A stretch of DNA of 61,912 nt, filler included, from Sphacelaria rigidula (GCA_964200075.2; 8 parts of 8 records of this genome joined end to end with filler, not necessarily neighbours in it), one strand, 5' to 3'; positions 7,653 to 41,370 are shown, numbered from the whole stretch's first letter. Numbers and translations: made by a program. The notes: generated by a model not told the origin, from the sequence alone.

Positions 7653-7752
7653 NNNNNNNNNNNNNNNNNNNNNNNNNNNNNNNNNNNNNNNNNNNNTTAA
7701 TTAATTAANNNNNNNNNNNNNNNNNNNNNNNNNNNNNNNNNNNNNNNNNNNN
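7653..7752. other. Artificial contig linker (N44-TTAATTAATTAA-N44); identical linkers at 15405, 23157, 30909, 38660, 46411, 54162
   Basis: Seven 100-nt spacers at 7751-7752-bp periodicity. Confidence 0.97.
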
Positions 7753-12654: not shown

Positions 12655-15404
12655 GTGGGGATTACGAACAATCAGTCGGCGGAGCAGGTGCCGGTCGAGG
12701 ACCAAGACAATTATATCCCTGTTGAGTTATATCTCCCCGATCAACGGGCGCGGGGAGCCATATCGATCAACGCGGTGTTGGATTCAGGCGCTCACTTCAC
12801 GAGCGTGTCGGTGCTGATTGTGGAGATGCTGGAGCGTCTGCTCCCCGGTGAGAAAATCCGAATTCCACTCTCGCTCGGGGCGCGGCAGGCCATCACCGCA
12901 TCGGGCCAACGTATAAATGTGACGGAGCGTACGATTCCCCTACAGTTGGCGCTCAGGACTAACTGGGGGCCAGCAAAATTACCCCCGATATCGTTTGCGA
13001 TCATGCCGAGGACGGACGGTGTCGTTCTGTTGGGCTTACCGACGCTTCGGGGACTCGGAGTTGATCCGTATGATCGGATGCTAGAATCCCAAATAACGCA
13101 AATGCCGGCGCCCAGTTCGAGTGTCGAGACGCCTGCTTTTTTGGCCAGTCGCAGAGTGAGCTTGTCGGCTGATGCTCTCCAGGAGGCGGGGGGGGCAGGT
13201 GTCCAAGAAGCGTGATGAGGCGGTGGAACGCTTGGTGGAGCGTGGCCCCGATATGTTTATGGAGCCGGCGGAAGAAGAGTCTGCGCGAAAGGCTGCGCTT
13301 GAGGAAAGCGTGACGGATGCGGTGGAAAATGGCCTCACCGTCTCAAAAGCGGAGCGCTTGCGTGGCATACTGTATCGCCACGTTAACGCGTTTCGTCGTG
13401 CACTGAGGGGTGATCCCCCTACGCGCGTGGAACCCATGAGGGTTACACTGAAGCCAGGGGCGGCCGCGGTGAAGGCAAAACCGAGGAGGTATGATCTGGT
13501 AAAGTCCAGTTGGCTAGCTTCTTGCATGGGAGCTTTTGTGGCGTTTGGGTTCGTGTTCAGGAATCTACAGGCGGTATGGTCCAGTCCAGCGATGGCGGTG
13601 CCGAAGAAGGACTCTTTCCGTCTTGTCAGCGATTACGGAGCCGTCAATGATCAAGTGGAGAAGTCGCGGGGTGTCATGCCCAATCAGGAATCCGATATGA
13701 TAGACTTGCTGAGTGCGCGATGTTTCGGTAAGTGGGACCTCCTACAGGGGTACTGGCAGATGCCGCTGGCCGAAGAGGCGCAAGAGTTATTCACAATCAC
13801 GACTCCGTTTCGCATGTTTACCCCACGAAGAGTACCGCAAGGCGTGTTGAATGCTACTTCCTATTTTCAAGGTGTCATGATGGACCTTTCAGATGGCTTG
13901 AAATGCAAGATTTGGGTGGATGATGTCTCTTTCTTCGCGGATACGGAAGACGAACTGTTGTGTACGCTTGATGCAATCTTGGCTCGCTTAGAGAGTGATG
14001 GTCTGTTTGCAGCTGCCCACGAGTGTACCTTTTTTGCTAGTGAACTAGTGTGGTGTGGGAAAGTATACTCATACGGTCGCGTCTCGCATGACCCGGTCCG
14101 CTTGCAAGGTTTGTCTGACATGCGGCGTCCAGAAACAGCCGCAGAACTAATGCAATTCCTGCACGCAATGAACTGGTTGCGTACCTCGTTGCCACGTATG
14201 GCCAAAGTAGTGGCGCCCTTACGCGGTTTCCTAGAGGAACCCATGGTGGGGGCAGCAAGGCGCACGAAGCGGGTGGCAAAACATCGTGTTATCCCACCCG
14301 CCTCGTGGACGGAGGACAGGCTACAGGCGTGGGCGGCAGCGAAGGATCTGGTGGCTCACGCCGTGACGCTGTTCCATACCCGCCCAGGTTGCCAGGTGCT
14401 GATGTTTCCGGATGTATCCGAGTGTCATTGGGGTAGCTTTGTAACGCAGGTGCCTGATGCAGAAATGCAACAACGGTTGTCGGTTGAAGACATGACGCAT
14501 GAACCGCTGGCTTTTCTGAGTGGTAATTTCAAGGGTTCCCAGCTGCGTTGGGCTACCATTGACAAGGAAGGTTTTGCTATCGTGAGCACTTTTCGTCGTC
14601 TTGAGCATCTATTGTGGAATGACGTACATATTTTTACGGATCACCGAAATCTAGCGTACATTTTCAACCCGGAGGCATGCGTGACGTCTGTGTCGAAGGC
14701 GTTGGCACAGCGATTGGAGGGGTGGAAAAGTGTATTAGGACAGTATCGGTACACGATTTGTCATATTTCGTGTGAGCGTAACGCGTGGGGTGACTTGCTG
14801 TCGCGCTGGGTAAATATTCCCATTTTGCCTGCGCACGCCGTGGCTGTGTATGGTCCGTGCGAACCTGACGACTCAATGCCGTCCAAATCTGTTGCCCGCC
14901 AAGCGCAACGAAAAGACTTCGGGGCCGAAGATGCGGATGTGCAATATTTCGAGTCGGACGTTGGTACTGCTATCTTGGGCAATGAAGGTGACCACTGGCC
15001 TCAAGGTCCGCTGTGCAATGGGCGCTAACTAGAGCATATCGCCGTCGGTACGATAGTACGCCGTATCACGTGATATTTGGTCGTGCCCCTCGGACGTCTT
15101 TCTCGGTGCTGGCGTCCTCGTCGGAGGGGGGATGGAAGTGTGATGTTCTGGACGATGTTTAAATTAAGAGTGCATTGCAAGGAGTCTTGGACTTGCAAGA
15201 ACGTTTCCACGTTCAAGTGCAGGAGCGTGTTGCAGCTGAACGTGCGCGTAGACGTGAGGGGTCTTCGTCGGGGCTGGAATTGCCGAATTTCGAAGTAGGC
15301 GATTATGTTTTGTATGCACGCGTGCGTCGCCCGGGAGTTACGCCAAAATTGATGGCGACGTGGACTGGTCCGTGGAGAGTGGTTGGTGCTCATCACCCGC
15401 ATGT
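12655..15404 (+). pseudogene. pol: Gypsy pol (aspartic protease, RT, RNase H, truncated integrase), frameshifted
   Basis: Protease AVLDSGA; RT DLLQGYWQ, VPQG, WVDD; RNase H DVSE, IFTDHRNL, NAWGDLLSR; IN C-terminus FEVGDYV..KLMATWTGPWRV. Confidence 0.9.
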
Positions 15405-16232
15405 NNNNNNNNNNNNNNNNNNNNNNNNNNNNNNNNNNNNNNNNNNNNTTAATTAATTAANNNNNNNNNNNNNNNNNNNNNNNNNNNNNNNNNNNNNNNN
15501 NNNNACAAAAGGTAAGCGGTTTCTGGAGGCGAATCGTCCGTTTTCGCGTGGCCATATCTCTCGAGTAACATGAGTTTTATCCGTTTTTTGTCGAGTCCCG
15601 GGTGCCAATAGCGCCCCCGAACGATGTGCATGAAAACTCCGGAGCGAAAACGGTCAAAATGGCCTGTTTGGCTGTTTTCGCGTTTCTGGCCATTTTTCGC
15701 ACCTTTCCTAGGCAAAAAACGAGAAGGCATACCTTTTCTAGGCCATTGCCCTTTTTTCTTAATGCGGCGGGTTAACGTCAGCAATCACCCCGCACTGGGC
15801 ATTAGTGGGGCGCAGCAGCGTCACGGAAAACATCGAACGCACTGCCCAACTCGACGAGTCTTGAGCTGAAATTTCAGGAAGACCTTTTGCACCCAAGGAA
15901 GTGATACTTCACGAGTCCAGCTGCAGATTCTCCTTTTTTTCCTGGACTTATGGCATTATCTATTTTTCTCTGAAATTTCGGATGCCCGTAACTTCCTTTT
16001 TTTATTTTCTATTTTTGCTGCTCACGTGATTTTCTACATTTCGATCATAAAAAGCTGCTGTCAACATTTCAGCGTTCAGCAAGGGGGCAGCGCCGAAAAT
16101 ATTTCCATACGTCGGACGAGCACGCGTGTTATTCGTGGCACTCGCACCCATTGGGCTGCTCGTTGGCCGTAAAAATGAATAGGGCGGGCACTCGAGTCAT
16201 TGCTCGTTGGGAAAACAAATGAATAGGGCCGA

Positions 16233-19465: not shown

Positions 19466-22400
19466 AAGTGCCATCGAAATGACTGGCCAACGTATTGCCT
19501 GTCGTGAGGTTTTGCGAGCTTGACACTACAAGCAGCGCCGAATCCAGAAGCGGGTGGACACTTCCATACCTATCCACCAGTAGAAACGTTCGAGTAACGC
19601 TAATGTGCGCGTGACACCAAAGTGGCAAGACAGGTTATTGTGGCAGCCTTTCATTACCCACGGTCGCATCAAAAATGGGACATATATCCGAGTGGGTTCA
19701 TCGTCGAGTAGGCGTGCATGGCGTCCAGGGGGCGCGAGTGAAGTTACACCCTGCTGGGGCGTAGGACGGCGGACAAGCAATTCGATTCCGTGATTAGTTG
19801 TGAAGATAGTACCTTTACGTGCGAGTTCGTACACCTCAGCGGCGTTTGGTGGTGGTAGTGTCCCAATCGGGGCTAATACATTGGCCGGGATAGGAGCAGG
19901 GCAGCCAGCACGGAGGTACCGCATGGTTGCGCGGCATAATGGTTCTGCTTGTTGTTCACGAGCCCAATCACGATGGGAGTAACTGGCGAGAAATTCGCGC
20001 AGATGGCCTTCCGCCGGAGAGCCGACCAGACATGGTGGCTCACGAAGCGATGGAACAGGCGACGGGAGGGAGATGCCAACGTCGATGTGAACATCGGAAG
20101 CATCAGGAGGGGTGGGCACTGACGGGGCCGCAGCGGGCGGCGATGTCGAAGTAGTGTGCGCCGGAGATCGCGCTCGGCGCTTGTGGTGAGGACAACGCGT
20201 GGCGGGGGTTGTCAAGGCTCGTGGTGCGGTGTTGCGGGGAGCCGGCGCTACGCTGCTCGCAGGAGCAGTAGGTGTTATCGGGTGGCGGCGGGGCGCGGGG
20301 AGGGTTAGCGCGGGCGGCAGACCGAGAGCGCATGTTGTCGGAAATGATATGGACAATTGGAGGCGGCGAAACTGCAATATTTGCGCGAGGACCAATAGTA
20401 CGGAAAATCGGCGAAATCGGCGTCTGCGGATTGTAGCCCATCCAAGACTGCATCATACGGTGGGGGGGGGGGGCGCCCATGTGCATACCCGTCTCTGGGC
20501 AATGAAGGTCAAGGGCGTAAATGGGCATTGAGAAACACCGGATAGGATACACGCCGGGTTCATCGGGTTCAGTTGGTCGGCAGGCGGGGCTGAAATCCAC
20601 AGCCGTTGGAGGGAAGGGCAAGCGGGATTCAAGGTCAGCATTCCGTTTGGTTTTGCCAAGGCGGTGTTTGACAGCATACTGATAAGCTGTCAGGAACTCC
20701 AACCAGCGATCACACACGCGAGTTATGTTCGCCAACTTTGGCGAGTTGTTCAAGTCCTGCGTGATCCGTGTAGATTTGGAAAGGCACATGGAACAAATAT
20801 TGTCGAAGGCGCTTTATGGCCCGAGTGATGACTCCGCCTTCCAGCTCCAGTGGACTCCAGTTGGCCTCGTTTGGAAGGGTGGCGCGACTGATATAGAGGA
20901 TGGGTCGAATAGAGCCATCGACTTGAGGCTGATTCAGGACCGCGCCGAACCTGTCGGTGCTTGCGTCTGTATGTCGTTGAAAGAAGCGAGAATCGTCTTG
21001 TGCGGCATCCCAATCTGGGAAGCAAAGGACCGGTTTTTCGGTAAGCGTTTTCCGCAAGTCGCGCACGATAGCTTACATGTCTTTGGTGAAGGCAAACGCG
21101 GCGCCTTTTTTTAAGCAAGTCCGTAATGGAGCGAATCCGTTTGGACAGGTTAGACAAAAAATTGCGATAGTAGGACAGTCCGCCCAATAACGAGCGGAGC
21201 TGAGTAATGTTCAGTCATTGCCCTGACTTTGTTGGTTTCGGGGTGTAGGCTCGCCGGTGAAATTGAGTGTCCCAGAAAATCCAGTTCAGTCGCGCCCAGG
21301 CGATCTTTGGATGGAGACAGTTTCAAATAATGTTTCCGCAGTCGAGAAAGAAACTATCGTAAGGTGTGCACATGCGCAAGAGGGGAGGCATCGAATGCGA
21401 TAGCGTCGTCCAAGTACATGATGACGTGTTCGACGTGCTCTGTAACGCGTTGCATGAAGAGTTGAAAACAATCTGGTGCAGTGGCGGCACCTTGTGGCAT
21501 ACGGAGCCATTCGTAGAGCCCAGAAGATGTGCACAACGTTGTCAGCGGGACTGTGTCAGGATGGATGGCATTCCGGAAAAATCCAGAAGCGAGGTCGAAG
21601 GTACTGAATATTTTGCCTTCGCCTAGAGAGTCGAAGACTTCATCTATGCGAGGAATGGGAAGTTTCCCCACCACAGTAACGCGATTTAGCCGTTGATAAT
21701 TCACGGTGATGCGTATGTTTCCATCCTTTTTGGGGACTATTGCTAGCGGTGAAGCCCACGGAGAAGAGGAGTGTTGGATTAATTCGGCACCTAAGTACGC
21801 ATCTAAGAGGGCGTTAACGTGTTTGATAAGGATGGGGTTCGTCCGATACGGTCGAGGAAAGATTGGCGAAACGCCAGGTTGAAGGGTGAGTTCAAAGGGA
21901 AGCGTTTTCCAATGCCCTAGATCCGTTTTGGAACGAGAAACTCGGTCTTGGTACTCCAATAAACATCGCTCAATTCTTTGATTACAGCGGGTTCCCAACC
22001 GGGTCCATGTAGGTCAAAGGTGATGTCACATAAATGGGATGGAAGTTGATCCCACATGTGCAAGAAACTTGTCCGAGATTCTGGCGATAGGCGTTGTAGC
22101 ACTTCGGCAGGAGGGTCGGACGTTGACGGTGCAGGGTCCACGGTGTGGATACGTGGAGACGAAGAGGTTACGTCAAAGTAAGGCTCACCGACGCCATTGA
22201 CAGAACCGTTTGTCGGAGGCGCCGAGATGGGCGTAGAGGGTTCAGTGGCACATGTCTCAAGTGGAATGTGCATGAGGGGAGCAGCAGCAATACCCAAAAC
22301 ATCTCCGGGTTCCAAGTTAGCATGACCCGTGAGTGGGAAAAGTTGTTTCCCTGCGGAGACAAAGTGTTCTGTGCCGGCAGGCGCACCAACTCGAGGAAGC

Positions 22401-24091
22401 ATTTCAGCGAGGTAATGTCCCGTAAGGGCAGGCATGCCATTTCGGCGAACTAGGGCAACTTCTAGCAGTTGAGGATTATCGGAGAGGGTAACACCAGCAG
22501 TACCATCGTATCGGAGGTGGTAAGGAGCTCCGGTAGCTTGTTCATTTTTTTGATAAGCCAACGCGCCGTGAAGAGTACCGAAATCTTCAAGGTTGGGCTC
22601 TCCACGAGGCGCAGACTGTGGCGATAATGGTGGCAGTGTGCGGCAGGTGCGTTGATCAAACCGCATATAACTATCTCGGCCCATGAGTAAGGCGTAAGCC
22701 ATGGTGCTGTCGGGGACAACATATGCCCAAACTGCAAGGCTGGCAGAACGAGTTGTGTTGTGAAAGAATCGCTCAATGAGACGGACTGATATCCATGTGG
22801 TCAAAGGTACGGTGGAGTCATCAAAACGGCCCCATACTCGAGGTTTGGTGATGATTTCGCAAGCTGCTGAAGCAGCACCAATTTGTTTCATATGTTCCCA
22901 CATTGATTCACGAATAAATGTTTGTGGGCTGCCGCTGTCTAACAAGGAGACGCATTTGGCAGTCGTGGTTGCGTATGGTCCACAATGGAGCGCTACGCGA
23001 GTAGTAAAAGTGGCAGGATTAACAGACACTGTACCGCCGACAAGATCCGGACCATGTTCAGCCAAGGAAACTTGATCAGAATCAGTAGTGCTGACGGCAA
23101 AAACGGAGGAAAGACTTTCACAGGCGGGTACAACACCCATGGGGGCCCGGAGAAGTNNNNNNNNNNNNNNNNNNNNNNNNNNNNNNNNNNNNNNNNNNNN
23201 TTAATTAATTAANNNNNNNNNNNNNNNNNNNNNNNNNNNNNNNNNNNNNNNNNNNNGAGGCCCTTTATATCCCTGGGTAGCATATCGACGTGTAGCTGTC
23301 AGCACACGCAAGTGATGGAGGTCAAGAAAAGCACACGTGGAATACAAGAATGACTCACTTTAAGCGAATGATCAAAGCCACTCTCAATCGTATCATGTAC
23401 TCTCAATGTCACGAAAACACTGTTCGTTCCCAATTTCGTTTTGTTGGGACAAAATGAGGGGAGCTTCGTTCCTCGAGGAAGAACCATTGATCGTACATAG
23501 TCACGATCCAGATCGGTTGGCTCCACCTAAACTTCGAAAACTGAGGTCTTTACACCCGTAGGGCCCCCAACGGCTTGTGCGCCCGTAACTCGCTTAAACT
23601 TGGTCGAAGAATATTTCTTCCCGGAAATGGTGTCGAGTAGCCATATCTCTTAATCTTCGGGGTTCGTGATCAACAAGAGACATTAGTGAGTCGTGATGAC
23701 CGCAAAAACTCGAAACATCACTTTTGATCGACACAAAAGGAGTTTGAAGTTGCAATGCAACAATTAGGCAAAGCCATTGTGCTGTCCACAACGCAGGTAA
23801 CGTCGAGAAGGGACACCTCACTCACAGCGCATGAACGGCAGCTACAACAACAACACGGTTGCTGAATTCGGCAAGGACAGGGGCCCCTTGCGCGTGGCTG
23901 AACGCGATGGGGCGAACGAGACCATCGGGGAGAATATACTTGCAGTGCTTCATGCGACTGCAAGCAACCCCTCGCATCATTCAATGTTGAAGTTTTACAC
24001 GACGAAGCCAACTCGCTCCGCAACACACGGCGACTGTGTGTTCTACCGCCAGTAAAGAGTACCACGGGTGTAGCTGATGACTGTATCATGT

Positions 24092-24291
24092 TACGAGGGG
24101 GGGGAGGGGGGGGATTCAGAGCGATTTCCTCCACGAAATTCCACCTCAAATCGTCGTTGAAAGCAGTAAGGTTTCCCAAAACTTGACGCCGTTTTCACCC
24201 AAATATAGACGTAACGCGGAAAGTTGGATCGTCTGATGCACTTGAGACCCTGTTTTTCATGGAATCGACCCCCTCTCCCCCCCTCCTATCG
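24092..24291. mobile_element. ~200-bp MITE with G-rich TIRs (family also at 25436-25632 and partially at 28305-28390)
   Basis: Shared core ttccacgaaattccac.../atggaatcga. The 25436-25632 copy has TA-cga..ggggg / ccccc..tcg-TA termini. Confidence 0.7.
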
Positions 24292-24504
24292 CATGCTCCG
24301 TCTCGAAAGAGATGCGTGGTCAATGGTCAAAAGACTAAGGCACGCAACAAATGAGTACGCCCTCTCCTATCGCGGCACTCCACGCCTCGTGCCCCCTTGA
24401 CGCATTTCTACCAGAATCACCCGCGACTTTATCACGTCTCTCGTCGAAGCCAAAAATACGGGTTGCTGAGCCGATGTAGTACGATTTCTTCAATAGGAGT
24501 TCAG

Positions 24505-27500
24505 TTAGACATAGTTTCCGTACCTCACGCTAGGCTTGGGCGCCGGCGAGGGTGGCGTTCCTGTGGTGAAGTAGTATGTGGTGTCCGAGCCGTACGTCTC
24601 CTGGCGGTAGGGGGTCAAACTTCCCAGGAACACCTGCGGGCACACAAGTTTCGTTTGTGGAAGTGAACCGTTTGGATATCGTAGGGGTAAGAATGAGAAA
24701 TGGGTTGAATCAGCCTGCACAGGCGAACGTGAAATTGTTCTATCGGCCAGTACAAACCTGTACTGCTAGGTGCACAACCGTAGGTGGTCTCCTTGATCAA
24801 TCATATCATAGACGAAAAGCCGAGACGAGGGCATGGAACAAAGTGAGAAACTGGGACGAAACCATAACTTAGGACTCCGAAACGGAGAACACCAAACCAG
24901 GAAAACACAAAGACAAATAGCAGACTCACGCTGGCAGCATCGGCCGTGGGCACGGTGACCGGGATGACACCCGCACCGCCGGTGGAATCCAGACTCATAC
25001 CCACGATGATACCGGTAGCGGCGTCCTTGGTAGCCGTTACAATAGGGCTATCAGCGTCCAAAGCTTCGTGCTCTTGGAAGTTCACGCACAGGTCGTCGAA
25101 CTTGACCGACTGCACGTCCATTGATGTAGGGAAAGCGAGGTCAGATTGATGTTTTGGACGTTGGACGGCGGTAAAGCTTGTCACTCTCGTGCTACGGGTT
25201 GTCTTGGGGGGTGATGCTACGGTACGGGTTGCACGTCTTTAGCGAAACGCTTCCTCTGGGCGTTGGACGGTTTATTTTTAAAAACGGCATCATTTTTACT
25301 TGAAAAAGACTGAAAATGATGCCGATTCACGATAGGGGCTCTGCGGGTATCTTCATGTCCGATCCCAGCTAATTTGGATCGCATAGTAAGCCCCATATAT
25401 TTGGGCTCCTACAGAAAAGAGACCCAGAGCCATGCTACGACAGGGGGGGGAGAGGGTTCGATTCCACGAAAAACTGTGCTCTTATATTTGGCTAAAAGCG
25501 GTGTAAAGTAGTGTCAATGAGCGTCAGTCATCGGGAGTGAGCGCGTTCGAACAACTGTTTGCTGCTTTTAACGGAGATTGGAGTGGAATTTCGTGGAAGA
25601 AAATGGTCCAAAATCCCCGCCCCCCTATCGTAGAAGTGCTTTTGAACCCCTGAAATTGTTACTCAAGTCTAAAACGGTTGCTTGGAGATGTGACGAAATG
25701 CGTCATACCTTGACGGGGAAGGTGACGAACTTGGACAGGGTGGCCATGACATCTACGTACCACTTCTCCAGCGAGGACATGCCACCCAGGTCGGCAGTCG
25801 GGATAATATTGGCCTGGTGGAACATGTACTTGTCCCTGTTTTCGCGATAGCATCAAGTTGTGGAGAGCAAGGATCAAGCACGACTGAGGGGGGCGGAGCA
25901 AGCGGCGCGTCCACGACATCTTCGCGGAGTGGTGAGGTACCATTGTAACTACTAGGCACGGATGTCGTTGGGCTATGTTCACACAGATTGCTAGGTATTG
26001 GTGAGTCTGAAATTCCTGAAGTGCCGAATACAAGAACCTGACCAGCATGCCCTCGCATACCTGCGGCCCATGAGCATGTAGCGCGTGGTGGTCTCAGCCT
26101 CGGCCGTGTAAATGGCGTCGGTGGAACCGAAAGATGAGATGTCATCGTTGCTGTTGCAGCCGAACACGGAGCCGACGTTCGAGCACGTCTGCTCAAGGAT
26201 GCGTGATGGGCAACATAACACCACCGGGCGAGGGGACAACGGACGTGAGGTCACAAATCAGCCCCTTCCCGCACTTTCGCCGAGAATGGCTTCGATGGCC
26301 GAGCTGATCCCGTCGATCAGCAGTGAACACACTCACGAAACAAGACATTTCGGGACACGACCTAACGCATTTGCCTCCACATGATTCCTCACCCCACGGT
26401 TCGGTATGGTGGGGTCCAGCTCCGAGCAGCCGCAGACGATCCGCCTGATGTACTCGTTTTCATCCACGAGGCACTAATATTTCTCGGGCGGCCAACAACA
26501 GGATTGAAACCGAAAATGAACGACGACGACGACGACATCAGAAACCGACAGGGTCAGGGAACGGACGATGACTGACGAGCCGTTTTGTGAGCTCTCGAAG
26601 CGAGGGATTTTGCGGGACGTTGACAATAGACGACAGTCGCCCACGATAAGTCAAGTTTTCACTTTTCCACCGTACACCTTTGCAAAGTCAACTCTACTCT
26701 CAGGCCCCAGACCGGTTGTGGATGACGATACCATATTGGAGTTTCACTCGGCTTCAGCCCACCCCTACCTTGCCGCTGACGCAGTTATAGTAGACGTAGG
26801 TGGCGTAACGAGGCACGATCTGCATCCCAGCGTGCCCTTGTTCGCAAAGATATCAACATGCGCGGTGGGAAAAGTCCGAAGACAACGGGGTCAGGTCGAG
26901 ATGATGCGCAGCTTTGGCTCTTCGGTCCACCATATTTCATAACGACCTGCACGTCATCGTTCCCTCTCCCTATCCCTCCTTCCTTGATGGGCCAAATAGC
27001 AGATTTCGCGAAGCGTTTTTCCCTTCTACGCAGACTGACGTGAAGCAAATGAGGATGGAAGCGCGCCGTCGACTTCCTCGTGCTCTACACCGCAGTGTTT
27101 CGAGCGATCTCTAGCGAGTTCTCACCGTTTGTGGCCACGGTGGAGTAGATGGAGTGAAACTGGCTGTTCTCGTTGACGAGGCTTACGGTGGTCTGTATGC
27201 CATCGTACGTGTTGTCACCGGGGTAGCAAGTCATGAGGTTGGCTTCACCGGACCTGAGACAGTTGGCGTTGAAGAGACCGGTGATACCCGGCGAAACCAT
27301 GCTGCGCCAGTTGTAAGTGTCCATGTCGAACATACCCGAATACACCGCGATCCGCACGTTGGCTGTGTTTTGGGCGAAGCGTTGGTGGTTGAAAATAAGA
27401 TGAACGGGTGGGGCGAGAACAAGTCCGGCGAGGCGACAGAAAGGGGACAGGATGAAGACAAGCGTGCTTCAAGAGCACTTCGAAAAGTGCACGAAATAAA

Positions 27501-30500
27501 TCAGCTTTCAATTTGGTGATGTTGCCGACACCTACGTTTCGAAAGGGGTTCAATCTAGACGGATTTGTGACAGGTAGGTCACGAACGTGGTCAGCGTGAA
27601 GGGATGTATTTCGGGTACCCTCTGTCCTCGGGGTAATTTTGGCACCGAGTGACTCAGGGTGCCTCAAGAATATATGTAGGGCTTCACAAATCCGGAGTCG
27701 GATCACGCCTCTTTCCTTCTTCGGTGCCTGCTGACCCCCCTGACAAACACGTACTCCTTCATGGTCAATATTTGGTGCTGCTTCCTATGGCCGCACGCAC
27801 AGAGATTACCCCCTCTCCCCTCCCTCCCTGCAACCCAAACGCCCCCAACTCTCGGCCATTCTGTACACACCTCCATCTTCGGCGTTGCAGTCTGACGCTT
27901 GGAGCTCGTCGCGAGAAAGATGTGTGAGGGTATGACTACCATGGAAGCCATCGTTGGGGTAAGCTAGTACCGCCTGGAGCAGAGCATCACTGTCCCATCC
28001 ACCGGCGGCCGCCTCGGCCTCGATGAGGGGTACGGTAACACTCATGTAGTTCGGAGGAATAACAACACTCTGCAGGCCTGGAACGTGTGAGGTACGGGGG
28101 GGGCGAAGGGGAGGGAGGGAGCAACCACAGCAATATTGGTTTTGCCCAAAGTGTGATGAAGTATAGGTTACGAGGTCATGCCCTTCGATACACTGTGAAG
28201 AGTCCGTGCGGCTGGGCACCGACGGGGGTCGCACTGCTTGTTATCGTTGTGGAACGTGGGTAGGCATCTAGGGGGATTACCGGTGAGTGGTGTATGGAGT
28301 GGAGTGAGGGGAGGGGAATTCTGGGCAACATCTTCCACGAAATCCCACCCCAACCGTCGTTTAAAATAGCAACGTCTGCTCGAACGCGTTCGGATTCAAC
28401 AACGTGCACTCATTTGTACCATGTGACACCGTTTTCACCAAGTTCAACCACTCCCTCTCCCATGGAACCATCATTCAAGTCTGCTTTGAAGCTCTCTTCG
28501 ACCACCTCAGTTGCTCACTGGAATTTACTAAACCGTATGAATTGCGGCATCGGTCACGTAGATGCATCGGTAGAGTGTTTAAACAGAAGTACCTGATCGA
28601 TGAGGGCAACAAGAGAATAACGAAAAACCAAGGAAGTGGAGTAGATATAGAAAACACTCGATGTGTATGATGAGCTAAGAACTAGTCACGCACTCGAGAG
28701 AAATCCTTGACAATCACTGGCCATGGTGTCACCCTAAGGAGACTGTGCTAATAGCGAAGTCATGGTAACAGGTCGCGACACCATCAGCTACCAAAACAAC
28801 AGCGACAAGGGTGCGTAACGGAGGGGCAGAAAATTGGAGAGATTCTTCTCATTTCATACAAATCTCAAACTGCACAACATCTCCTTCATCGCAACACCCA
28901 ACCACGTGCGGGGGACGAACACTGCGGCACACTATTGAGCAGTCCATGCACACATGACAAGACTTGTTGGTCATAGGCCGAACTCACCAGGAGGCGTCAT
29001 CTTCGTCCCCTTGACAGTGACGATCGTCTCCTCGTACGGAGGTACGTGGAGAGAGCCGACCTGTGACGCCGTCGCACGGGGGCGGTGGACCAGGGCAGCG
29101 AGATAAGTCGCTGTGTATACACCAACCCACTAGTGTTGCAATGCGTGAGAGGACCGCGTGCTTAGAGGATCGCATCGGCGTTTGAATATCCTTCTGGTTA
29201 GGGTTAGGGTTAGTCTTAGGGGTTAGGGTCAGGGGCGTGGTTCCTGCGGGGACTGGCCGATTAGTTCTAAAAAACGTCGATCCTGGGGTGTTTCGAACTA
29301 CGATGCGGTTCTCTACGCACGTGGTCCTCCCACGCATGACAAGTGTGATCGGGGCTGCGAGCGCCGTTACGGAGGGCACAGTCACAGCGATCAGGACTGG
29401 AGTTGCACAATCTCAGCACAAAATACTACCGCAGTAATTACCGGTCAAGTTGACTTCAGCTTCACCGCGCACGGCACGACACACCGCTCGCGCCGTGCAG
29501 ATCTTCATCCACTACAAACACGGACGATAGTCCACATTGCAATTGAGCAGGCGCCCGCCGAAATAAATGCGAGGATACGGTCGAACGCTGCACCTTATTC
29601 CGGCGGAGGGTATGCAACATCAGTCTACCGAGAATAGACATAGTTTCGCAGGTACGTCCGTACGTGTATATCGGAATGCGTGGAAGGATCGCGTGCGTTT
29701 TGGACCGCATGGGGAATATGAACACCCTAGGATCGAGGTTTTCAAGACCGCTCGGGCCAGTCCCTGCAGAAATCGCGCGTCTGACCCTCACCGTAACCTC
29801 AACCCTAACCCTAGGGGTGTTCATACTCCGATGCTGTTCAAAATGCACGAGGTCCTTTCACGCATGACATATATCTGAAGGTGAGTATTTCGAATGCATA
29901 CGCCGAGAAGGTAATGCTCCCGTTTAGACTGCATGTACCCCGGAGATGGATCCCTAAGAGAACATCAACGACCTATGCAGCTCCTCTCATACGATGAAAA
30001 ACGACGGCACAAGATTGAACAACACCCCAACTGAACTTAGAGACTGGCAACGACACACATATTTCTCGGGGACGAAAAGGGGGGGCGGGAATGGGGGAGG
30101 GGAGACTGCGAAATTCGTCCATTTTATTTCACCTGTACCCTTTGTTCATATTCACCTCTTGAAGGATACCAGCCCCGTTGAAAGCGTACTCCGTGATGAT
30201 TTCCGACGAATATTGACTGTTTAAGTCATTCTGCACGTTGATCATCTTCTCATAGTCCGCAGCTGAACATCTGTACGCCTGTATAGTTTGAACCGCGAGT
30301 TGCACATCCGGTACAATACCAACAGGTGGGACAGACGGGCGAATTTACCGTGAGTAAGCAGAGGATGACCGTAAACATAAGTGGTTCAAGTGTGAGCAGG
30401 TGAAGGCGAAGGCGCGAAATATCCAAATATATCGATGACGTAAACTTGGACATTTCTCCATCAGCTCATTTCGCACCCACAAAAATGGACTGGTTGCGCA

Positions 30501-30718
30501 GGATACCGTCATAGTGTCCTTGAAATCAGATCCCCGGCAGAACGCCAGGAGGTCCGAATAGTGCAACCCGGAGAATCAAGAGGGAGTACGATTGTAAGGG
30601 TTCTGGGCAACGAAACTACACTTACCGGGCCCTCATTGAATAAGCCATTGTATTCGAATTCGTGCGTAGCGAGGAACATATCATCAACCGTGGCTCCCAG
30701 GTAGAAACGACGCTCTCC
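24505..30718 (-). CDS. agd3: Agd3-like (CE18-type) metal-dependent polysaccharide deacetylase, 11 exons, 5'-incomplete
   Basis: Exons 30718-30626, 30278-30156, 29060-28988, 28077-27871, 27362-27126, 26836-26769, 26473-26393, 26188-26061, 25835-25709, 25109-24930 and 24633-(24524 donor or 24505 stop). All have GT-AG boundaries and consistent phase, giving ~475 stop-free codons. Ordered motifs: GERRFYLGATVDDMFL, EYAFNGAG, SHTLTH, SPGITGLFN..GDNT, GMQIVPRYATYVYYNC, DKYMFHQAN, ETYGSD. These parallel fungal Agd3 motifs as recalled (RRVxLxTQIDDMFL, SHTFTH, PPAITGLHN..GDN, PRWATxIYYNC, YMFHQAN). Confidence 0.85.
29141..29337 (+). mobile_element. ~200-bp non-autonomous element with IRs and an internal TTAGGG-like tract (intron of the Agd3-like gene)
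   Basis: atgcgtgagaggaccgcgtg ... cacgtggtcctcccacgcat, with internal ggttagggttagggttag. Confidence 0.7.
29676..29865 (-). mobile_element. Second copy of the TTAGGG-containing element, core inverted
   Basis: The internal sequence matches the reverse complement of 29141-29337 (..ggccagtccctgcag..aaccctaacccta..). Confidence 0.7.
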
Positions 30719-30808
30719 CTACCGTCCATGCAAAGCCGGGTGGATGATAGACACATACGAGGTCGAGTAAGAAGGCGGGAGACGGCGGAGGGCGAGCGAG
30801 GCGCGCGC

Positions 30809-30839
<31 letters not shown>

Positions 30840-32841
30840 ACGGTTTTTTTTTGGGGAACCCGCGGGGAAGAAAAAGGAGGGGGAACGGGCGGGAAGAGGG
30901 GGGATATTNNNNNNNNNNNNNNNNNNNNNNNNNNNNNNNNNNNNNNNNNNNNTTAATTAATTAANNNNNNNNNNNNNNNNNNNNNNNNNNNNNNNNNNNN
31001 NNNNNNNNGGGGGGGGGGTGTACTGATGACCATGCATGCCATAGTAGGGGGGGGGGGGAAAGGAAATGCTTCAGTATAAAAACATGCCTTGGAATGTTAG
31101 TTGTGCATGTATCGTGTGCGACAGCTTATCGCACAAAATTCTCCTGTGGTTTCACCAATTCCCCCCCTCCTCCGCGAGACAGTCGATATATATTAGACCC
31201 TGGTTTGTCTTACTACTCTCGTACCTACACTATACTCCTGTCTCGTAAGGAGGCTGAAGTTGACTGGGGGGGGGGATGGGTCGTGCGGCTGATGGCGGGC
31301 CGCAAACAAGAAGACAGGCAAACTATTTACTATTTTCGGGAAAAGGGGTGATGAATGACGGATGACGAAGACTACATTTGTTTGTTTGTTTATTTGTTTT
31401 CTTTGTCCTCCTTTGCTTCTGGTCTAGCGAGCTAACAATGAAAAACAAGAGAGAAAAAAACAAACATGGAGGTCACTTTTCTCCCGCTGCGTGCTTTTTT
31501 TTACTTCAACACACACAGACACACACAGACACTTTTGTTTTCTGTCTTCCCCGACTTTTTTTCTCTACAATAATCGCGAAAGAAAAAGAGTAAATGCATA
31601 CCTGTATGTATGTGCGTGTGTAGGATAACGAAAATTTCCCAGCTAAGACCAGCTATATGCCGCGGACGCTATATCGGGGATTTAGTTGTGGAGCCTGGGT
31701 TCGTGGATATGGTGCAGTAATGTGGGGGCACATAAAGAGTCACGGTTCTCTACTTCCTAGAGAGTAAGTCGCTCCTTGGGGACCAGACAGCTAGCAAGAT
31801 GTTGGTCGTGGCGCATGACCTCTGGTGGATGTTATCCTAGGGGTCGGAACTACGGAACATCGGCGAAACGTGAAGAACATATTGTTCAGCTGTATGGTAG
31901 TCAGCATTATAAGTCTGCGGAAATCGTATTATAGTTGTTATTATTTCCGAGTTTTTTTCGAGTACTATTCTTCATTAGTACTTGAAAGTGCTAGCGTCGG
32001 TAGATTTATTGCAGGGGGAAAGCGTAGGCCGCGCTCAAACAACAGTGCCCAAATTGGTGTTTTTGGGGCGATACGGACTAGATACCCCGTTTACCAGGAG
32101 GGTGTTATTGATCGTTTTCGGTCCATTAGAAACAGTTTTCCGGCTCTTTCGCAACGAAATGGTGAATGTTCAGATAAATAAATATGTATACAATTCTTCA
32201 AAAAAACGATCGAGATTGTCTTTCCCCCCTATACTGCACAGAGATCAATCCAGCATTTTCCGTGAAGGGTTTCTGTTCTGTTTTTTTCCGCATAATATTC
32301 TCCATGAGCACCCGAAAGCGCTAGCGTCAATATTTTTGGCAAAATAAGCAGATCGTGTTCAAATCACAATGCCCGAGTTGGTGTTGTGGGGGCGATACGA
32401 AGTAAAGACCCCGTTGATCAGGAGGGTGTCTTTGATCGTGAATGGTCCAAGACACACAGTTCTTCGGCTCTAGCGCAGTGAATAGGTGGAACTTAAAAAA
32501 AAACATTGATTTTCCATGTATTCACATATATGATCGGGATCAAGTCGGTCCACCAAATGTACCGAAAAGCCAGAACCTGGGGTCGCACTTTCGCAGGACC
32601 GCCGAAGATCGGTCAAGCTCGTATGTCTCCCGATATTGATCGCAATTTTTTTTTTCTTTCGATATTTATCAAAGAGATGATAATATTCCCAGGTCCCCAT
32701 TTTTTGGCATCCAACGTCCACCGTGATGAGCGGTGGCAAGCGAAAGAAATTTGGGAAATCTCCAAGTAACTAAGAAATTACTAATTCCGCAGACTACTGA
32801 TGCAGACTACTGTATGTCGTGCGATTTTGGTTGCTCCGCAG

Positions 32842-38638: not shown

Positions 38639-41370
38639 ACAACACCCACGCCAAAAGGANNNNNNNNNNNNNNNNNNNNNNNNNNNNNNNNNNNNNNNNN
38701 NNNTTAATTAATTAANNNNNNNNNNNNNNNNNNNNNNNNNNNNNNNNNNNNNNNNNNNNCTGTAGGGATGCGAGGTGAATGGTCTTCAGACTATGGCATG
38801 CATGATCATGAGTACACCCCCTCCATTCCCGAAGTACGCGCTAGGATCGTATTCTCCATCAGGGCTGGTTAAATACGAATGACGATGCTCCTCAACATGC
38901 GAATGGTTACTGGAACGTAGGCATCCTACTTGCTGATCGAGACCACCATTTTCCCCCTCCTCCCCGAACACCCTCATCCGGGGGTGGTACTCGCCGTTCT
39001 GGCCGTTTACTAGCGGACTACATGATGCTTGTGAAGACATGAGAGGTATCGTCAAAACATCGACACTTTCATTTTGTACCCCTGGGACAGTCAGGAGCAC
39101 CGGCGTTCGTTTGAGAGGACTAAACGGTAGATGCCACCCCCGGGGACGGCTACTTTACTACCCCTGGGAAGACCATGGGCCCAATCTCCACATGAGACAT
39201 CAATGCTTCGAAGATGTTTTCTATACGGTCGTACGTGCCATGCAATATCTTGTTGGCTATTGATGAGGTTCTGAATGTACTGAAACAGCCGAAACAAGAT
39301 AGGGACAAAAATAGCCAGCATGTTCTAAATTCAAATGAATTGGTCAGGACCCATCGGCTGCAGGTCTAAAACCTTCGACTGACGTTGCCCAATTCGGCCG
39401 CAAGTTATTTCTGCCCTCTCTAACTCGACAGCGTAGATTCGATTTCTGGGTTGCCTTGTTTGATTACCTGCCGTATTTACTACCCTGAATCGGCAGTGCA
39501 AATATTTAAATGGTCATTTTTCAATGAAAGAAGGGTTAATGTGGACAATCACCTCGGATTCGGCGTGTGCACCGAAGTTTCAGTCGGTACAGTTTTTTTC
39601 TTCTTTATTCAAGTAATAATTGGGCCGGCTAGTCTTTGGCCTAGAATGACGGCGACATGCCCTGTCCTATTTTGTTTCCTGGATTTGGAAAACAAGCATA
39701 TGATGTAGATTAGATACTTGGGAATGCCGCCGTCGAATTCAGAAAATGCAGCAACAAAGCGAGCTCAGGCCGCTTCTTTTTGTCTGCAAAAAGTCGCTGA
39801 AAAAAGTCGTTATGGTCAGTTTTCAGAGATCTTTTTAGAACCCGACCTTATAAGGCCGTTTTTCATCAAAGTGCTCTCTGGAAACTGCGAAATGTTTTCA
39901 GCCCGCAAGATTTTGCCAAACCCGGCCGAGAAAAGCGGTCAGTCGTCAGTGAGATCAAACTCTCTGAAATGTAGCGCTCCATCACACCCTCCTCGCATAC
40001 AAGTGAAGTACAGTCAGTGCAAAAGTAGCTATGCATGTTCTATGTATTACTGTTTACAATATAAAGCACCGCAGCAGCAGCATAGCTGCTGCAGCACTCC
40101 GTGCATCCTTTGTATGACCGTAGGACTGGCGATAATCAGTTTGGAGCTTTCTGGCCAGCAGCCTCACTACTGGAAAACCGCACGGCATCGGCCCTAATGG
40201 CTGTATTGATCGCTCGTATCGTTTCATGCTCGTCGTGCCCGCAACCGATTGTGAACTCTGCAGTATTCTGTATGTCGAGACTGTTGCTACCGCACTTCTT
40301 GCTGACACGTGAGTTTCTTGTGTGCGGTACGGCACAAACCATCCTGCTACACACTGCACCGCTCAGCTGTTGCGACACTACTACTGTACCAAGCGGCGGT
40401 CGGCTAAAGGGTTGATACACCTGTCTTTTCGACCCCTATTACATCAGTAACTACCATGTGTGTGTTGTGTGTGTTGTGTGTGTTGTGTTGTGCTGTGTGT
40501 GTGTTGTGTTGTGCTGTGTTGCCATCCCATCTATTCCGTACCTGGACGAGATGGCGTCTTCAGTTGACCGCAGGTGACTCAAGCACACCATGCAAATGAT
40601 TACCACTACTATTGCCTGCACCCAGGCTAGATGATGGCCTCGGGTGTACAAAGCCCCAGCTATTTTCTGACAGACTGTAAGCGGGGGTTTTGAAAACTGA
40701 CATCTCTGAAAGAGTCACTGAGAAAAGTCGTCCGCCCCAACTTTTTTCAGGGACTTTTTTTCAGTCTATAAGAAGCGGTCTCAACGCTGCCACGGATCCA
40801 CACACCCCGCGTCCCGGTTGTCGAAGTCGTGCATCACCTCTGGTTTTTGGTTTAGTTCTTGGACTCCAATATCTCCAGCAGGGTCTCTTTTGTTTAGGTT
40901 TTCCGTGACCCGAAAACGGGAGAACGAGATTGACAAAAATAATTTGATAAAAGTCAGCAGGTGGCGGTACCGAGTGAGAGGTGGGCTCATCTCTCGAGAG
41001 CGACTACGGACTCGTACCGGAGAAATACAGTAAATATGAGCGTGGTATATTGCGTCGCGTATTCGTTCATAACAGCATGGTGAGATCCGGTCCGGTCCGG
41101 TTCGATCTCTGCGACCCGCTGGCTCACTCGTCCTCTCTACACCTCTCTATTATAGTCGCTGTACTTGTAGTCATGATTGAATCGAAGAAGCTCTAACATC
41201 GTCACCCTGCCGCCTTCTGCGAGTAGAGGATGCAAAAAGATGGTACGGCTCGAAAACAAAGTTACCATCACCACGGCCACCACGACTACCGCTGCTCTGC
41301 CGCGAGTTGATGCACAAGCAAGTACGTGTGTTCCACGCAACATTTTTTTTCTGTGTATTAACTCAAGTAG

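What the first reader, a model, noticed from the sequence alone, without database searches (positions are those of the whole stretch)
24505..30718. Intron-rich Agd3/CE18-like exopolysaccharide deacetylase in an apparent brown alga
Seen: eleven short minus-strand exons, which appear in the ORF track only as scattered fragments, splice with canonical GT-AG sites and consistent phase into ~475 stop-free codons. They keep, in order, the Asp-Asp motif (TVDDMFL), the HxxxH metal motif (SHTLTH), the Arg motif (PRYAT) and the His motif (YMFHQAN). Established: Aspergillus Agd3 (family CE18) de-N-acetylates alpha-1,4-GalNAc in galactosaminogalactan, making a cationic adhesive biofilm polymer; it has an N-terminal CBM87 module. 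Brown algal walls are described mainly as alginate, sulfated fucans and cellulose, and I know of no described galactosaminogalactan pathway there. Inference: an intact, apparently functional enzyme points to an undescribed amino-sugar or acetylated polysaccharide, possibly for spore/holdfast adhesion, or to activity on microbial biofilms. It may have arrived by ancient horizontal transfer and then gained introns.
Basis: partly seen in the sequence, partly recalled or inferred. Interest (0 to 1): 0.85.

Follow-up and report, generated by a model that had tools for sequence, protein, structure and literature searches.

The report
Brown-alga Agd3-like sugar deacetylase gene fragment
This is the intact-looking but 5'-cut rear two-thirds of a brown-alga gene for an Agd3-type (CE18-like) polysaccharide deacetylase, one member of a large family shared by all brown algae whose sugar target is still unknown.

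Summary
Eleven minus-strand exons (30718 to 24505) join through ten GT-AG introns into 481 stop-free codons. All four Agd3 catalytic motifs are present. The Asp-to-His spacing is 132 residues, exactly as in Agd3.

Against a profile built only from fungal and bacterial Agd3 relatives, the spliced product scores 242 bits. The best of 200 shuffles scores 3.1 bits.

A 55%-identical Pylaiella homologue folds with pLDDT 90. Its best match among solved structures is Agd3 (6NWZ), E 4e-42, TM 0.70/0.82.

Corrections to the finding:
- The window is eight unrelated 7.65-kb contigs joined by N/TTAATTAATTAA linkers.
- The gene runs off its contig about 190 bp above the first listed exon. The N-terminal third (signal peptide, WSC, CBM87-like part) is therefore missing, and the window neighbours mean nothing.
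- The 3' end is uncertain.

The gene is not a lone oddity. Its product is 86% identical to a Sphacelaria rigidula protein and sits in a brown-alga-only clade that includes the earliest-diverging orders. Databases already label Ectocarpus copies as Agd3-domain proteins. The donor of any gene transfer is unresolved, and the substrate is untested.

The parts
23257..30908 (.). The 7652-bp contig that holds the gene. It is bounded on both sides by artificial N44-TTAATTAATTAA-N44 linkers (linker cores at 23201-23212 and 30953-30964).
   Evidence: seven identical linkers cut the window into eight pieces of 7652, 7652, 7652, 7652, 7651, 7651, 7651 and 7651 bp
30626..30718 (-). Exon 1 of the part present (aa 1-31). 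It carries CM1 (TVDDMFL): the putative catalytic base at codon 30685-30683 and the metal-binding Asp at codon 30682-30680. An acceptor AG at 30720-30719 precedes it, so upstream exons are missing.
   Evidence: local profile E 5.1e-12; aligned to the fungal/bacterial 'vDDvfl'
30156..30278 (-). Exon 2 (aa 32-72)
   Evidence: Pfam Agd3_CE positions 16-66, E 8.8e-4; local profile E 3.5e-12
28988..29060 (-). Exon 3 (aa 73-96, ends in phase 1). It lies in a brown-alga-specific insertion.
   Evidence: local profile E 0.017; the junction to exon 4 is ungapped against Sphacelaria P0005
27871..28077 (-). Exon 4 (aa 97-165). It carries CM2 HxxxH (SHTLTH): His codons 27934-27932 and 27922-27920.
   Evidence: local profile E 2.5e-14; aligned to 'sHTftHe'
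27126..27362 (-). Exon 5 (aa 166-244), the best conserved exon
   Evidence: Pfam Agd3_CE 29.9 bits against a cut-off of 27.6, E 3.8e-7; local profile E 1.6e-41; 79-81% identical to Sphacelaria proteins
26769..26836 (-). Exon 6 (aa 245-267). It carries CM3 (PRYAT): Arg codon 26810-26808.
   Evidence: Pfam Agd3_CE E 1.3e-5
26393..26473 (-). Exon 7 (aa 268-294), the start of a Cys-rich insertion between CM3 and CM4
   Evidence: (E 8.2e-10)
26061..26188 (-). Exon 8 (aa 295-336, ends in phase 2)
   Evidence: (E 8.5e-10); 13 of 13 homologues are ungapped across the exon 8/9 junction
25709..25835 (-). Exon 9 (aa 337-379). It carries CM4 (YMFHQAN): Met codon 25825-25823 and the putative catalytic acid His at codon 25819-25817.
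   Evidence: Pfam Agd3_CE E 0.014; local profile E 9.8e-16
24930..25109 (-). Exon 10 (aa 380-439), part of the C-terminal beta-rich domain
   Evidence: E 2.3e-20; aligned to the C-terminal part of the fungal/bacterial profile
24505..24633 (-). Exon 11 as read through to TAA (24507-24505). An alternative donor AG|GT would end the exon at 24524 and lead to further exons that were not found on this contig.
   Evidence: no convincing match to the last 78 residues of P0005 in 23257-24640 (best E 2.7)

Best explanation
The locus is the rear two-thirds of a nuclear brown-alga gene for a metal-dependent polysaccharide deacetylase of the Agd3 (CE18) type. The part present covers the catalytic domain and the C-terminal beta domain. 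A contig end in the assembly cuts off the front.

Shown here:
- An 11-exon GT-AG model of 481 codons.
- Full-length homology of that part to the Agd3 family.
- All catalytic residues that Bamford et al. 2020 defined: base Asp12, metal triad Asp13/His145/His149, base-orienting Arg254, Met341 and acid His343 (numbering of my model).
- The CE18-typical spacing of 132 residues between the Asp and His motifs.
- Membership in a brown-alga-only clade that includes Discosporangium and Choristocarpus, so the family predates the brown-alga radiation.

Shown for a 55%-identical homologue only: the three-domain Agd3 fold.

Inferred:
- The full protein is secreted. Complete homologues start with hydrophobic, signal-like N-termini. 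Members of this gene's subfamily carry WSC carbohydrate-binding domains.
- It removes acetyl groups from an extracellular glycan by the Agd3 mechanism: a metal-activated water, Asp as base, His as acid.
- The most likely substrate class is an N-acetylhexosamine polymer of the alpha-1,4-GalNAc (galactosaminogalactan/Pel) kind. This rests only on family precedent and on the amplified GH114 family in brown algae.
For: Gene model. Junction support: junctions 3-10 are ungapped against Sphacelaria P0005 (86% over 391 columns; the single 6-residue gap lies inside exon 5). Junctions 4, 5, 6 and 8 are ungapped in 13 of 13 homologues.

Family:
- Pfam Agd3_CE hit 4 of the 10 ORF fragments I submitted, in collinear profile order; exon 5 is above the gathering score.
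- Homologues hit PF25115 at E 1e-39 to 1e-45 over profile positions 2-363 of 366.
- Ectocarpus P0013 matches PDB 6NWZ (Agd3) at E 1.8e-22, residues 152-766 against chain 96-647.
- The spliced model scores 242 bits against a profile of 15 fungal and 18 bacterial members. None of 200 shuffles exceeds 3.1 bits.

Catalytic residues: the motif definitions come from passages of PMC7229062. The alignment is and the spacing. The same residues are invariant or at least 90% conserved in 12 brown-algal proteins and in 60 family members.

Fold: P0018 gives pLDDT 90.3 and pTM 0.90. The top Foldseek hit is 6nwz_A at E 4.1e-42, TM 0.70/0.82, 765 columns. The next hit, human NDST1, is at E 4e-14.

Lineage: brown clade of 47 of 146 rows (support 100) and 19 of 61 rows (SH-aLRT 100). 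The window model is sister to Sphacelaria.

Context: GH114 at about 5 genes per genome and 'amplified' in brown algae (passages of PMC11468063; passage of the bioRxiv preprint 10.1101/2024.02.19.579948). A GH114_assoc domain is present on paralogues P0045 and P0039.
Against: - No transcript evidence for this gene was available, so junctions 1 and 2 rest on homologues only (7 of 13 and 10 of 13 ungapped). Exons 3 and 11 are statistically weak on their own.
- The gene is incomplete at the 5' end and perhaps at the 3' end, so intactness of the whole gene is unknown.
- The window's own spliced protein could not be sent to Pfam or to structure prediction (tool rules), so the fold evidence is by proxy.
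- Pfam's CBM87 model (PF25116) did not hit any of the 7 brown-algal proteins scanned at E <= 0.01.
- The CAZy-based expert annotation of brown algae lists only one CE18 row among 6,821 rows, and none for Ectocarpus or Sphacelaria. By CAZy's own thresholds these proteins may therefore fall outside CE18.
- No galactosamine polymer is documented in brown algae in the papers I searched.
- GH135 (the Sph3 family) is listed only for Discosporangium and Tribonema.
- Nothing here shows activity or substrate.
Confidence: 0.75

Rival explanations
1. Same fold and chemistry but a different substrate. The enzyme strips acetyl groups from a known brown-alga polymer (O-acetylated fucans or alginate), or from a GlcNAc-containing glycan or glycoprotein, rather than from a GalNAc polymer.
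For: - Brown-alga proteins sit on a very long stem (1.1-1.8 changes per column) away from every characterised member.
- They carry two lineage-specific insertions, one between CM1 and CM2 and a Cys-rich one that widens CM3-CM4 from 55 to 89 residues.
- They lack a detectable Pfam CBM87.
- Subfamily members carry WSC domains instead.
- From my own knowledge, not from a call: the related CE4 family includes both N- and O-deacetylases, and brown-alga fucans are often O-acetylated.
Against: - Every characterised enzyme near this fold acts on N-acetylated hexosamine polymers: Agd3, PelA and PelADA (passages of PMC7229062 and PMC13254593), and NDST1 by the description in its row.
- The GH114 partner family is amplified in the same genomes.
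Confidence: 0.25
2. The enzyme targets microbial rather than algal polymers. Together with the amplified GH114 hydrolases, it would de-N-acetylate and so expose bacterial Pel or fungal galactosaminogalactan on the alga's surface for cleavage, as an anti-biofilm defence.
For: - Ega3 (GH114) cuts only deacetylated regions of GAG, and agd3 and ega3 are functionally linked (section 13 of PMC7229062).
- Both families are multi-copy in brown algae.
- Homologues appear to be secreted (N-termini read by eye).
Against: - In the known systems deacetylation makes the polymer adhesive and builds the producer's own biofilm.
- WSC fusions, which in brown algae also sit on wall-modifying enzymes (my own knowledge), point to the alga's own wall.
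- No data here address expression on infection.
Confidence: 0.12
3. The copy in this window is a dead fragment or pseudogene, one of many tandem or dispersed copies, and is not expressed.
For: - It lies on a small 7.65-kb contig with low-complexity ends and dispersed repeats in introns.
- The N-terminal third is absent from the contig.
- The family is highly multi-copy.
Against: - There are no stops or frameshifts in 481 codons.
- All 20 splice dinucleotides are canonical.
- All catalytic residues are kept, and the product is 86% identical to the Sphacelaria protein with 93% positives.
- The truncation coincides with an assembly break, not with a lesion.
Confidence: 0.07
4. The contig is a fungal or bacterial contaminant in the algal assembly.
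For: The Agd3 family was described only from fungi and bacteria (section 13 of PMC7229062).
Against: - The nearest relatives are all brown-algal. The window product is 86% identical to Sphacelaria and 52-57% to full-length Ectocarpus, Scytosiphon and Pylaiella proteins. Ectocarpus P0013 is only 20-38% identical to the fungal and bacterial hits.
- The window model nests inside the brown clade with support 100.
- Ten spliceosomal introns rule out bacteria.
Confidence: 0.02

Closest known systems
Aspergillus fumigatus Agd3 (CAZy CE18, PDB 6NWZ), the galactosaminogalactan de-N-acetylase
   Same: - All four catalytic motifs: CM1 DD, CM2 HxxxH, CM3 R, CM4 MxH.
- An identical 132-residue gap between the metal Asp and the first His.
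- A C-terminal beta domain.
- For the homologue P0018, the whole three-domain fold (TM 0.70/0.82).
   Different: - About 19% identity in the structural alignment.
- A 34-residue longer, Cys-rich CM3-CM4 segment and an extra insertion after the AFNG motif.
- Pfam CBM87 is not detected in brown-alga proteins.
- This gene's subfamily adds N-terminal WSC domains.
- No GAG gene cluster context can be seen.
- The substrate is unknown.
Chytrid and ascomycete Agd3 homologues (e.g. Cladochytrium replicatum P0080, Chytridiales sp. JEL 0842 P0077)
   Same: - They are the best-scoring non-brown-alga relatives of the brown-alga profile: P0077 (E 4e-68) and P0079, P0080 (E ~1e-52 to 1e-51). The unnamed P0074 (E 3e-93) scores higher.
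- In the unrooted tree they lie on the same side as the brown algae (SH-aLRT 84).
   Different: They form their own clade (SH-aLRT 98) and carry Pfam CBM87 and Agd3_C hits. Brown algae are not nested among them.
Bacterial Agd3-like proteins (Myxococcota, Actinomycetota, Chloroflexota, Bdellovibrionota and others)
   Same: The same catalytic motifs and a three-domain layout.
   Different: They lie on the far side of the tree. They are 22-36% identical to one another's reference and 19-25% to P0018. In published work they often sit in exopolysaccharide operons with GH114 genes (section 13 of PMC7229062).
PelA (CE21), Bacillus PelADA and the human NDST1 N-deacetylase domain
   Same: They are structural relatives found by Foldseek (NDST1 E 4e-14; PelA 9cgy E 1.2e-7). 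All are metal-dependent de-N-acetylases of hexosamine polymers (passages of PMC13254593).
   Different: The fold match is much weaker (TM 0.24-0.47), and they belong to other CAZy families or to none.
CE4 NodB-type deacetylases (PgdA, PgaB, IcaB)
   Same: The same Asp-His-His metal chemistry and a related barrel (passages of PMC7229062).
   Different: CE4 has about half the MT1-MT2 spacing, an early MT3 Arg and an MT4 Asp. No Pfam NodB hit at E <= 0.01 appeared in the 9 proteins scanned.

Membership tests
CE18 / Agd3 deacetylase family (Pfam PF25115 Agd3_CE) | Significant match to the family's sequence profile | tested here: met
   - Exon 5 alone scores 29.9 bits against a cut-off of 27.6. Three more exons give collinear sub-threshold hits.
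- The spliced model scores 242 bits against a fungal and bacterial profile.
- The orthologue P0005 scores 137 bits against PF25115.
- The spliced protein itself could not be sent to the Pfam tool.
CE18 / Agd3 deacetylase family | CM1 Asp-Asp (catalytic base plus metal ligand) | tested here: met
   TVDDMFL at aa 10-16 aligns to 'vDDvfl' of the fungal/bacterial profile and to the Agd3 'iddmfl'.
CE18 / Agd3 deacetylase family | CM2 HxxxH metal ligands, more than 120 residues after CM1 | tested here: met
   H145 and H149. The spacing is 132 residues, the same as Agd3 D378 to H510.
CE18 / Agd3 deacetylase family | CM3 late arginine that orients the base | tested here: met
   PRYAT with R254 aligns to 'iiPRraT'. 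The Arg is invariant in 60 of 60 aligned sequences.
CE18 / Agd3 deacetylase family | CM4 Met-x-His (catalytic acid) | tested here: met
   YMFHQAN with M341 and H343. These are at least 90% conserved in alignment A2.
CE18 / Agd3 deacetylase family | Agd3-like three-dimensional fold (CE barrel plus C-terminal domain) | tested here: inconclusive
   Met for the 55%-identical homologue P0018 (6nwz_A, E 4.1e-42, TM 0.70/0.82). The window's own spliced protein could not be folded under the tool rules.
CE18 / Agd3 deacetylase family | N-terminal CBM87 module | not testable with these tools
   That part of the gene lies beyond the contig end. In homologues the structural alignment spans the Agd3 N-terminal domains, and phmmer aligns P0013 152-318 to chain 96-250. 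Pfam PF25116, however, gives no hit at E <= 0.01.
CE18 / Agd3 deacetylase family | Metal-dependent de-N-acetylation of alpha-1,4-GalNAc | not testable with these tools
   This needs enzyme assays.
CE18 / Agd3 deacetylase family | Listed as CE18 by CAZy-based annotation | tested here: inconclusive
   Supplement file 3 of PMC11468063 has a single CE18 row among 6,821 rows (Desmarestia herbacea) and none for Ectocarpus or Sphacelaria. UniRef names Ectocarpus copies as Agd3 deacetylase domain proteins.
Galactosaminogalactan (GAG) biosynthetic system | Clustered or co-occurring Gtb3 (GT4), Uge3, Sph3 (GH135) and Ega3 (GH114) | not testable with these tools
   - The contig is 7.65 kb and holds only this gene. 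Window neighbours are unrelated contigs.
- From the literature only: GH114 is amplified in brown algae, and GH135 rows exist only for Discosporangium (4) and Tribonema (1).
CE4 (NodB homology domain) | NodB profile match and short MT1-MT2 spacing | tested here: not met
   No NodB/Polysacc_deac hit at E <= 0.01 in the 9 proteins scanned. The spacing is 132 residues.

The most novel reading that the evidence does not exclude
Brown algae make and remodel an unrecognised, partly de-N-acetylated alpha-1,4-GalNAc-type (galactosaminogalactan/Pel-like) cationic polymer in their extracellular matrix. The machinery would be an ancestral, much-duplicated Agd3-like deacetylase family, fused to WSC or GH114-associated domains, working together with the amplified GH114 hydrolases. 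Such a polymer could glue the polyanionic alginate/fucan wall or serve in spore and holdfast adhesion.
Probability: 0.25. Interest if true: 0.8.

Novelty: new member of a known kind. Interest (0 to 1): 0.45.

Why it matters
Brown-alga walls are described as alginate, sulfated fucans and cellulose. Yet all sampled brown-alga orders carry a conserved, catalytically intact, multi-copy Agd3-like deacetylase family. The GH114 family, already reported as amplified in these genomes, is its functional partner in fungi and bacteria. Together they point to an acetylated, probably amino-sugar, glycan that nobody has characterised in these algae.

In the papers I could search, this family is not discussed for brown algae:
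- Agd3 + brown alga: 0 papers.
- CE18 + brown algae: 1 irrelevant paper.
- No paper listed holds 'galactosaminogalactan' together with a brown-alga term.

It appears only as one CE18 row in a supplement.

The hypothesis is directly testable with recombinant enzyme and sugar analysis. For this particular window, though, the value is limited: it is a truncated copy on a short contig.

Tried and rejected
- **Upstream exons.** tblastn with four homologues and a profile of 15 full-length homologues against all six-frame fragments of the whole window found nothing for the N-terminal ~410 profile positions (best E 21). The cause is the contig end.
- **Further 3' exon.** tblastn with the tail of P0005 against 23257-24640 gave only noise (best E 2.7).
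- **Pfam on fragments.** Six of the 10 submitted fragments gave no hit: those bearing exons 1, 4, 10 and 11, and two that proved to be in the wrong frame.
- **Naming unnamed tree neighbours.** P0056, P0124, P0127 and P0158 therefore stay unidentified. Whether other stramenopiles or algae own the family is unchecked.
- **ESM Atlas.** It gave family-consistent rows but no useful taxonomy.
- **Contaminant reading.** Rejected (see rivals).
- **Non-catalytic lectin-like reading.** Rejected, because every catalytic residue is conserved across the brown-alga family.
- **Complex prediction.** Not used; no binding claim is made.
Full report
**1. What the window is**

The 61,912-base window is not one stretch of chromosome. 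Seven identical spacers (44 N, TTAATTAATTAA, 44 N) cut it into eight pieces of 7652, 7652, 7652, 7652, 7651, 7651, 7651 and 7651 bp. These are short contigs sorted by length and chained together.

The finding lies wholly in the fourth piece, 23257-30908. Anything beyond those limits is unrelated sequence. The two preceding pieces carry retrotransposon fragments: a zinc knuckle, reverse transcriptase/RNase H and integrase.

**2. The observation**

From the raw sequence and tblastn with homologues I built an exon model on the minus strand:

| Exon | Coordinates |
|---|---|
| 1 | 30718-30626 |
| 2 | 30278-30156 |
| 3 | 29060-28988 |
| 4 | 28077-27871 |
| 5 | 27362-27126 |
| 6 | 26836-26769 |
| 7 | 26473-26393 |
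| 8 | 26188-26061 |
| 9 | 25835-25709 |
| 10 | 25109-24930 |
| 11 | 24633-24505 |

All ten introns (204-1095 nt) begin with GT and end with AG. The phases agree, and the product is 481 codons without a stop, ending in TAA.

A profile of 15 full-length brown-alga homologues was searched against all 3156 six-frame fragments of the window.
- It picks out exactly these eleven fragments, in order. Nine have E <= 1e-9; exons 3 and 11 are weak (E 0.017 and 0.083).
- Nothing else in the window scores better than E 0.52.

Junction support:
- Junctions 3 to 10 are ungapped against the Sphacelaria rigidula protein P0005. It is 86% identical over 391 columns, and its only gap lies inside exon 5.
- Junctions 4, 5, 6 and 8 are ungapped in 13 of 13 homologues.
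- Junctions 1 and 2 are ungapped in only 7 and 10 of 13.

First, the gene is cut at its 5' end. Exon 1 begins right after an acceptor AG with an in-frame stop before it. The remaining 190 bp to the contig end are low-complexity C/G runs. No match to the first ~410 positions of the homologue profile exists anywhere in the window.

Second, the 3' end is unsure. The alignment to P0005 stops exactly at an alternative donor (AG|GTACGG, exon end 24524). P0005 then goes on for 78 residues that I could not find in the 1.25 kb left on the contig.

**3. What it is**

*Sequence evidence.*
- Pfam's Agd3 deacetylase domain (PF25115) hit 4 of the 10 fragments I submitted, in collinear order. Exon 5 is above the curated cut-off on its own.
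- Tool rules barred sending the spliced protein to Pfam or to folding. I therefore built a profile from 15 named fungal and 18 bacterial family members, with no brown algae in it.
- The spliced product scores 242 bits over profile positions 296-656 of 675. That span is the catalytic domain plus the C-terminal domain. The best of 200 shuffles scores 3.1 bits.

*Catalytic residues.*
- Bamford et al. 2020 (PMC7229062; passages and section 13 read) define four catalytic motifs in Agd3: D377/D378, H510/H514, R613 and M666/H668.
- All four align in the window product: D12/D13, H145/H149, R254 and M341/H343.
- The Asp-to-His distance is 132 residues in both proteins, which that paper gives as a mark of this family against CE4.
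- The same residues are invariant or nearly so in 12 brown-alga proteins and across 60 family members.

*Differences from Agd3.*
- There are two lineage-specific insertions: one after the AFNG motif, and a cysteine-rich one that lengthens CM3-CM4 from 55 to 89 residues.

*Fold evidence.*
- The complete Pylaiella homologue P0018 is 55% identical to the window product. Folded with a 60-sequence alignment, it gives pLDDT 90.3 and pTM 0.90.
- Its best match among solved structures is Agd3 (6nwz_A): E 4.1e-42, TM 0.70/0.82 over 765 columns.
- It is far ahead of human NDST1 (E 4e-14) and PelA (E 1e-7).
- Ectocarpus P0013 aligns to Agd3 by sequence from residue 152 to 766 (E 1.8e-22).

**4. Relatives and lineage**

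The window is brown-algal.
- Exon 5 alone finds 26 proteins. The 20 named ones all come from Sphacelaria, Scytosiphon, Ectocarpus, Pylaiella or Choristocarpus; the other 6 are unnamed.
- A wider search with Ectocarpus P0013 finds 62 proteins. Of these, 46 are of the brown-alga type (E <= 1e-91).
- Of those 46, 36 are named as Ectocarpus spp., Scytosiphon, Pylaiella, Discosporangium, Choristocarpus or Hapterophycus, or carry the label Undpi1, which I read as Undaria.
- The other 16 are distant: one chytrid, some bacteria and unnamed sequences.
- UniRef already calls Ectocarpus copies 'Agd3 deacetylase domain-containing protein' or 'WSC domain-containing protein'.

The family as a whole is large. 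The brown-alga profile finds 1265 clusters at E <= 0.001 and 151 at E <= 1e-30.

*First tree (146 rows).* Of 166 proteins with hits, I left out 2 with repeated domains and 19 with under 280 profile positions.
- The brown-alga proteins form one clade of 47 rows (support 100).
- Discosporangium and Choristocarpus are basal, and three later subfamilies follow.
- The window product is sister to Sphacelaria inside the WSC-bearing subfamily.

*Second tree (IQ-TREE, 61 rows of my choosing).* The rows were 19 brown, 15 fungal, 18 of the 75 bacterial loci plus 2 named bacterial proteins, and 7 unnamed.
- Brown algae form one group (SH-aLRT 100) on a very long stem (1.82), and fungi form another (98).
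- Brown algae and fungi lie on one side, and bacteria with the unnamed proteins on the other, with support of only 84.
- Brown algae are therefore nested in neither fungi nor bacteria.

The family was present in the common ancestor of the sampled brown algae. Where it came from, and whether sister groups have it, is not resolved here.

**5. How it most likely works**

Shown: catalytic competence at the sequence level, and the Agd3 fold for a homologue.

Inferred:
- The protein is secreted. Many complete homologues begin with hydrophobic, signal-like N-termini. I read these by eye; no predictor was run.
- It is anchored or targeted by WSC domains.
- It hydrolyses acetyl groups from an extracellular glycan through a metal-bound water, with Asp12 as base (held by Arg254) and His343 as acid.

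The substrate is not known. Three things favour an alpha-1,4-GalNAc-type polymer:
- the family precedent set by Agd3, PelA and PelADA;
- the published finding that GH114, the family of the Agd3 partner Ega3, has about 5 genes per brown-alga genome and is 'amplified' (PMC11468063, passages; bioRxiv 10.1101/2024.02.19.579948, passage);
- paralogues P0045 and P0039, which join the Agd3 domain to Pfam's GH114-associated domain.

Several things count against it:
- the long branch and the insertions;
- no Pfam CBM87 hit;
- GH135 rows only for Discosporangium and Tribonema;
- no report of galactosamine polymers in brown algae in my searches.

**6. Known or new**

Bamford et al. list fungi and bacteria only; the words alga, Ectocarpus and stramenopile do not occur in the text.

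The CAZyme survey of brown algae (PMC11468063) does not mention CE18 in its main text. Its gene table has a single CE18 row, for Desmarestia herbacea, among 6,821 rows.

I found no paper discussing the family in brown algae. However, bioRxiv supplements were closed, subscription journals are not in the library, and the protein databases already carry the automatic label.

I therefore rate it a new member of a known kind: an ordinary, truncated copy of a conserved brown-alga family. That family as a whole deserves attention, because it implies an uncharacterised acetylated glycan.

**7. Unchecked**

- Transcript support was not checked.
- The missing 5' and 3' parts were not recovered.
- Intron positions in other algae were not compared.
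- Genomic partners were not searched for.
- The closed metagenome and viral collections were not searched.

Noticed in passing
window 7653-7752, 15405-15504, 23157-23256, 30909-31008, 38660-38759, 46411-46510, 54162-54261: Seven identical artificial spacers (N44 + TTAATTAATTAA, a stop in all six frames, + N44) join eight contigs of 7652 or 7651 bp. The window is a length-sorted chain of unplaced contigs, so adjacency between pieces has no biological meaning.
   Followed up: yes
window 11262-15028 (+) and 19526-22013 (-): Retrotransposon fragments lie on the two neighbouring contigs. One has a gag-like zinc knuckle, reverse transcriptase and RNase H on the + strand. The other has reverse transcriptase and an integrase zinc-binding domain on the - strand.
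   Followed up: partly
window 24102-24149, 25559-25625, 28308-28372: A short dispersed repeat of ~50-65 nt (core GGAATTTCGTGGAAGA, flanked by G/C runs) occurs three times. All three copies are on this contig: the 3' flank, intron 9 and intron 3, in mixed orientation. It may be a small MITE- or SINE-like element. There are no copies on the other seven contigs.
   Followed up: partly
window 29282-29341 and 29810-29869 (intron 2): A 60-nt direct repeat (75% identical, 528 nt apart) lies inside the 1095-nt intron 2. Short telomere-like CCCTAA/TTAGGG runs sit next to each copy.
   Followed up: no
homologues P0045, P0039, P0043 (Scytosiphon promiscuus and unnamed): Some brown-alga paralogues join the Agd3 deacetylase domain to Pfam's 'N-terminal GH114-associated domain' (PF14741). 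My scan gave E 2e-21 for P0045 and 1e-20 for P0039; P0043 carries the precomputed label only. This is a domain-level link between the CE18-like and GH114 families.
   Followed up: partly
homologues P0074 (2398 aa) and P0077 (1926 aa, Chytridiales sp. JEL 0842): These proteins have two or three consecutive copies of the Agd3 catalytic domain. They are either tandem genes fused by gene prediction or true multi-domain enzymes.
   Followed up: no
homologues P0056, P0124, P0158: A well-supported small clade of unnamed, long Agd3-family proteins. P0056 has a signal-like N-terminus, Pfam CBM87 and EGF-like domains, which suggests a further eukaryotic lineage that owns the family. Its organism could not be determined.
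   Followed up: partly
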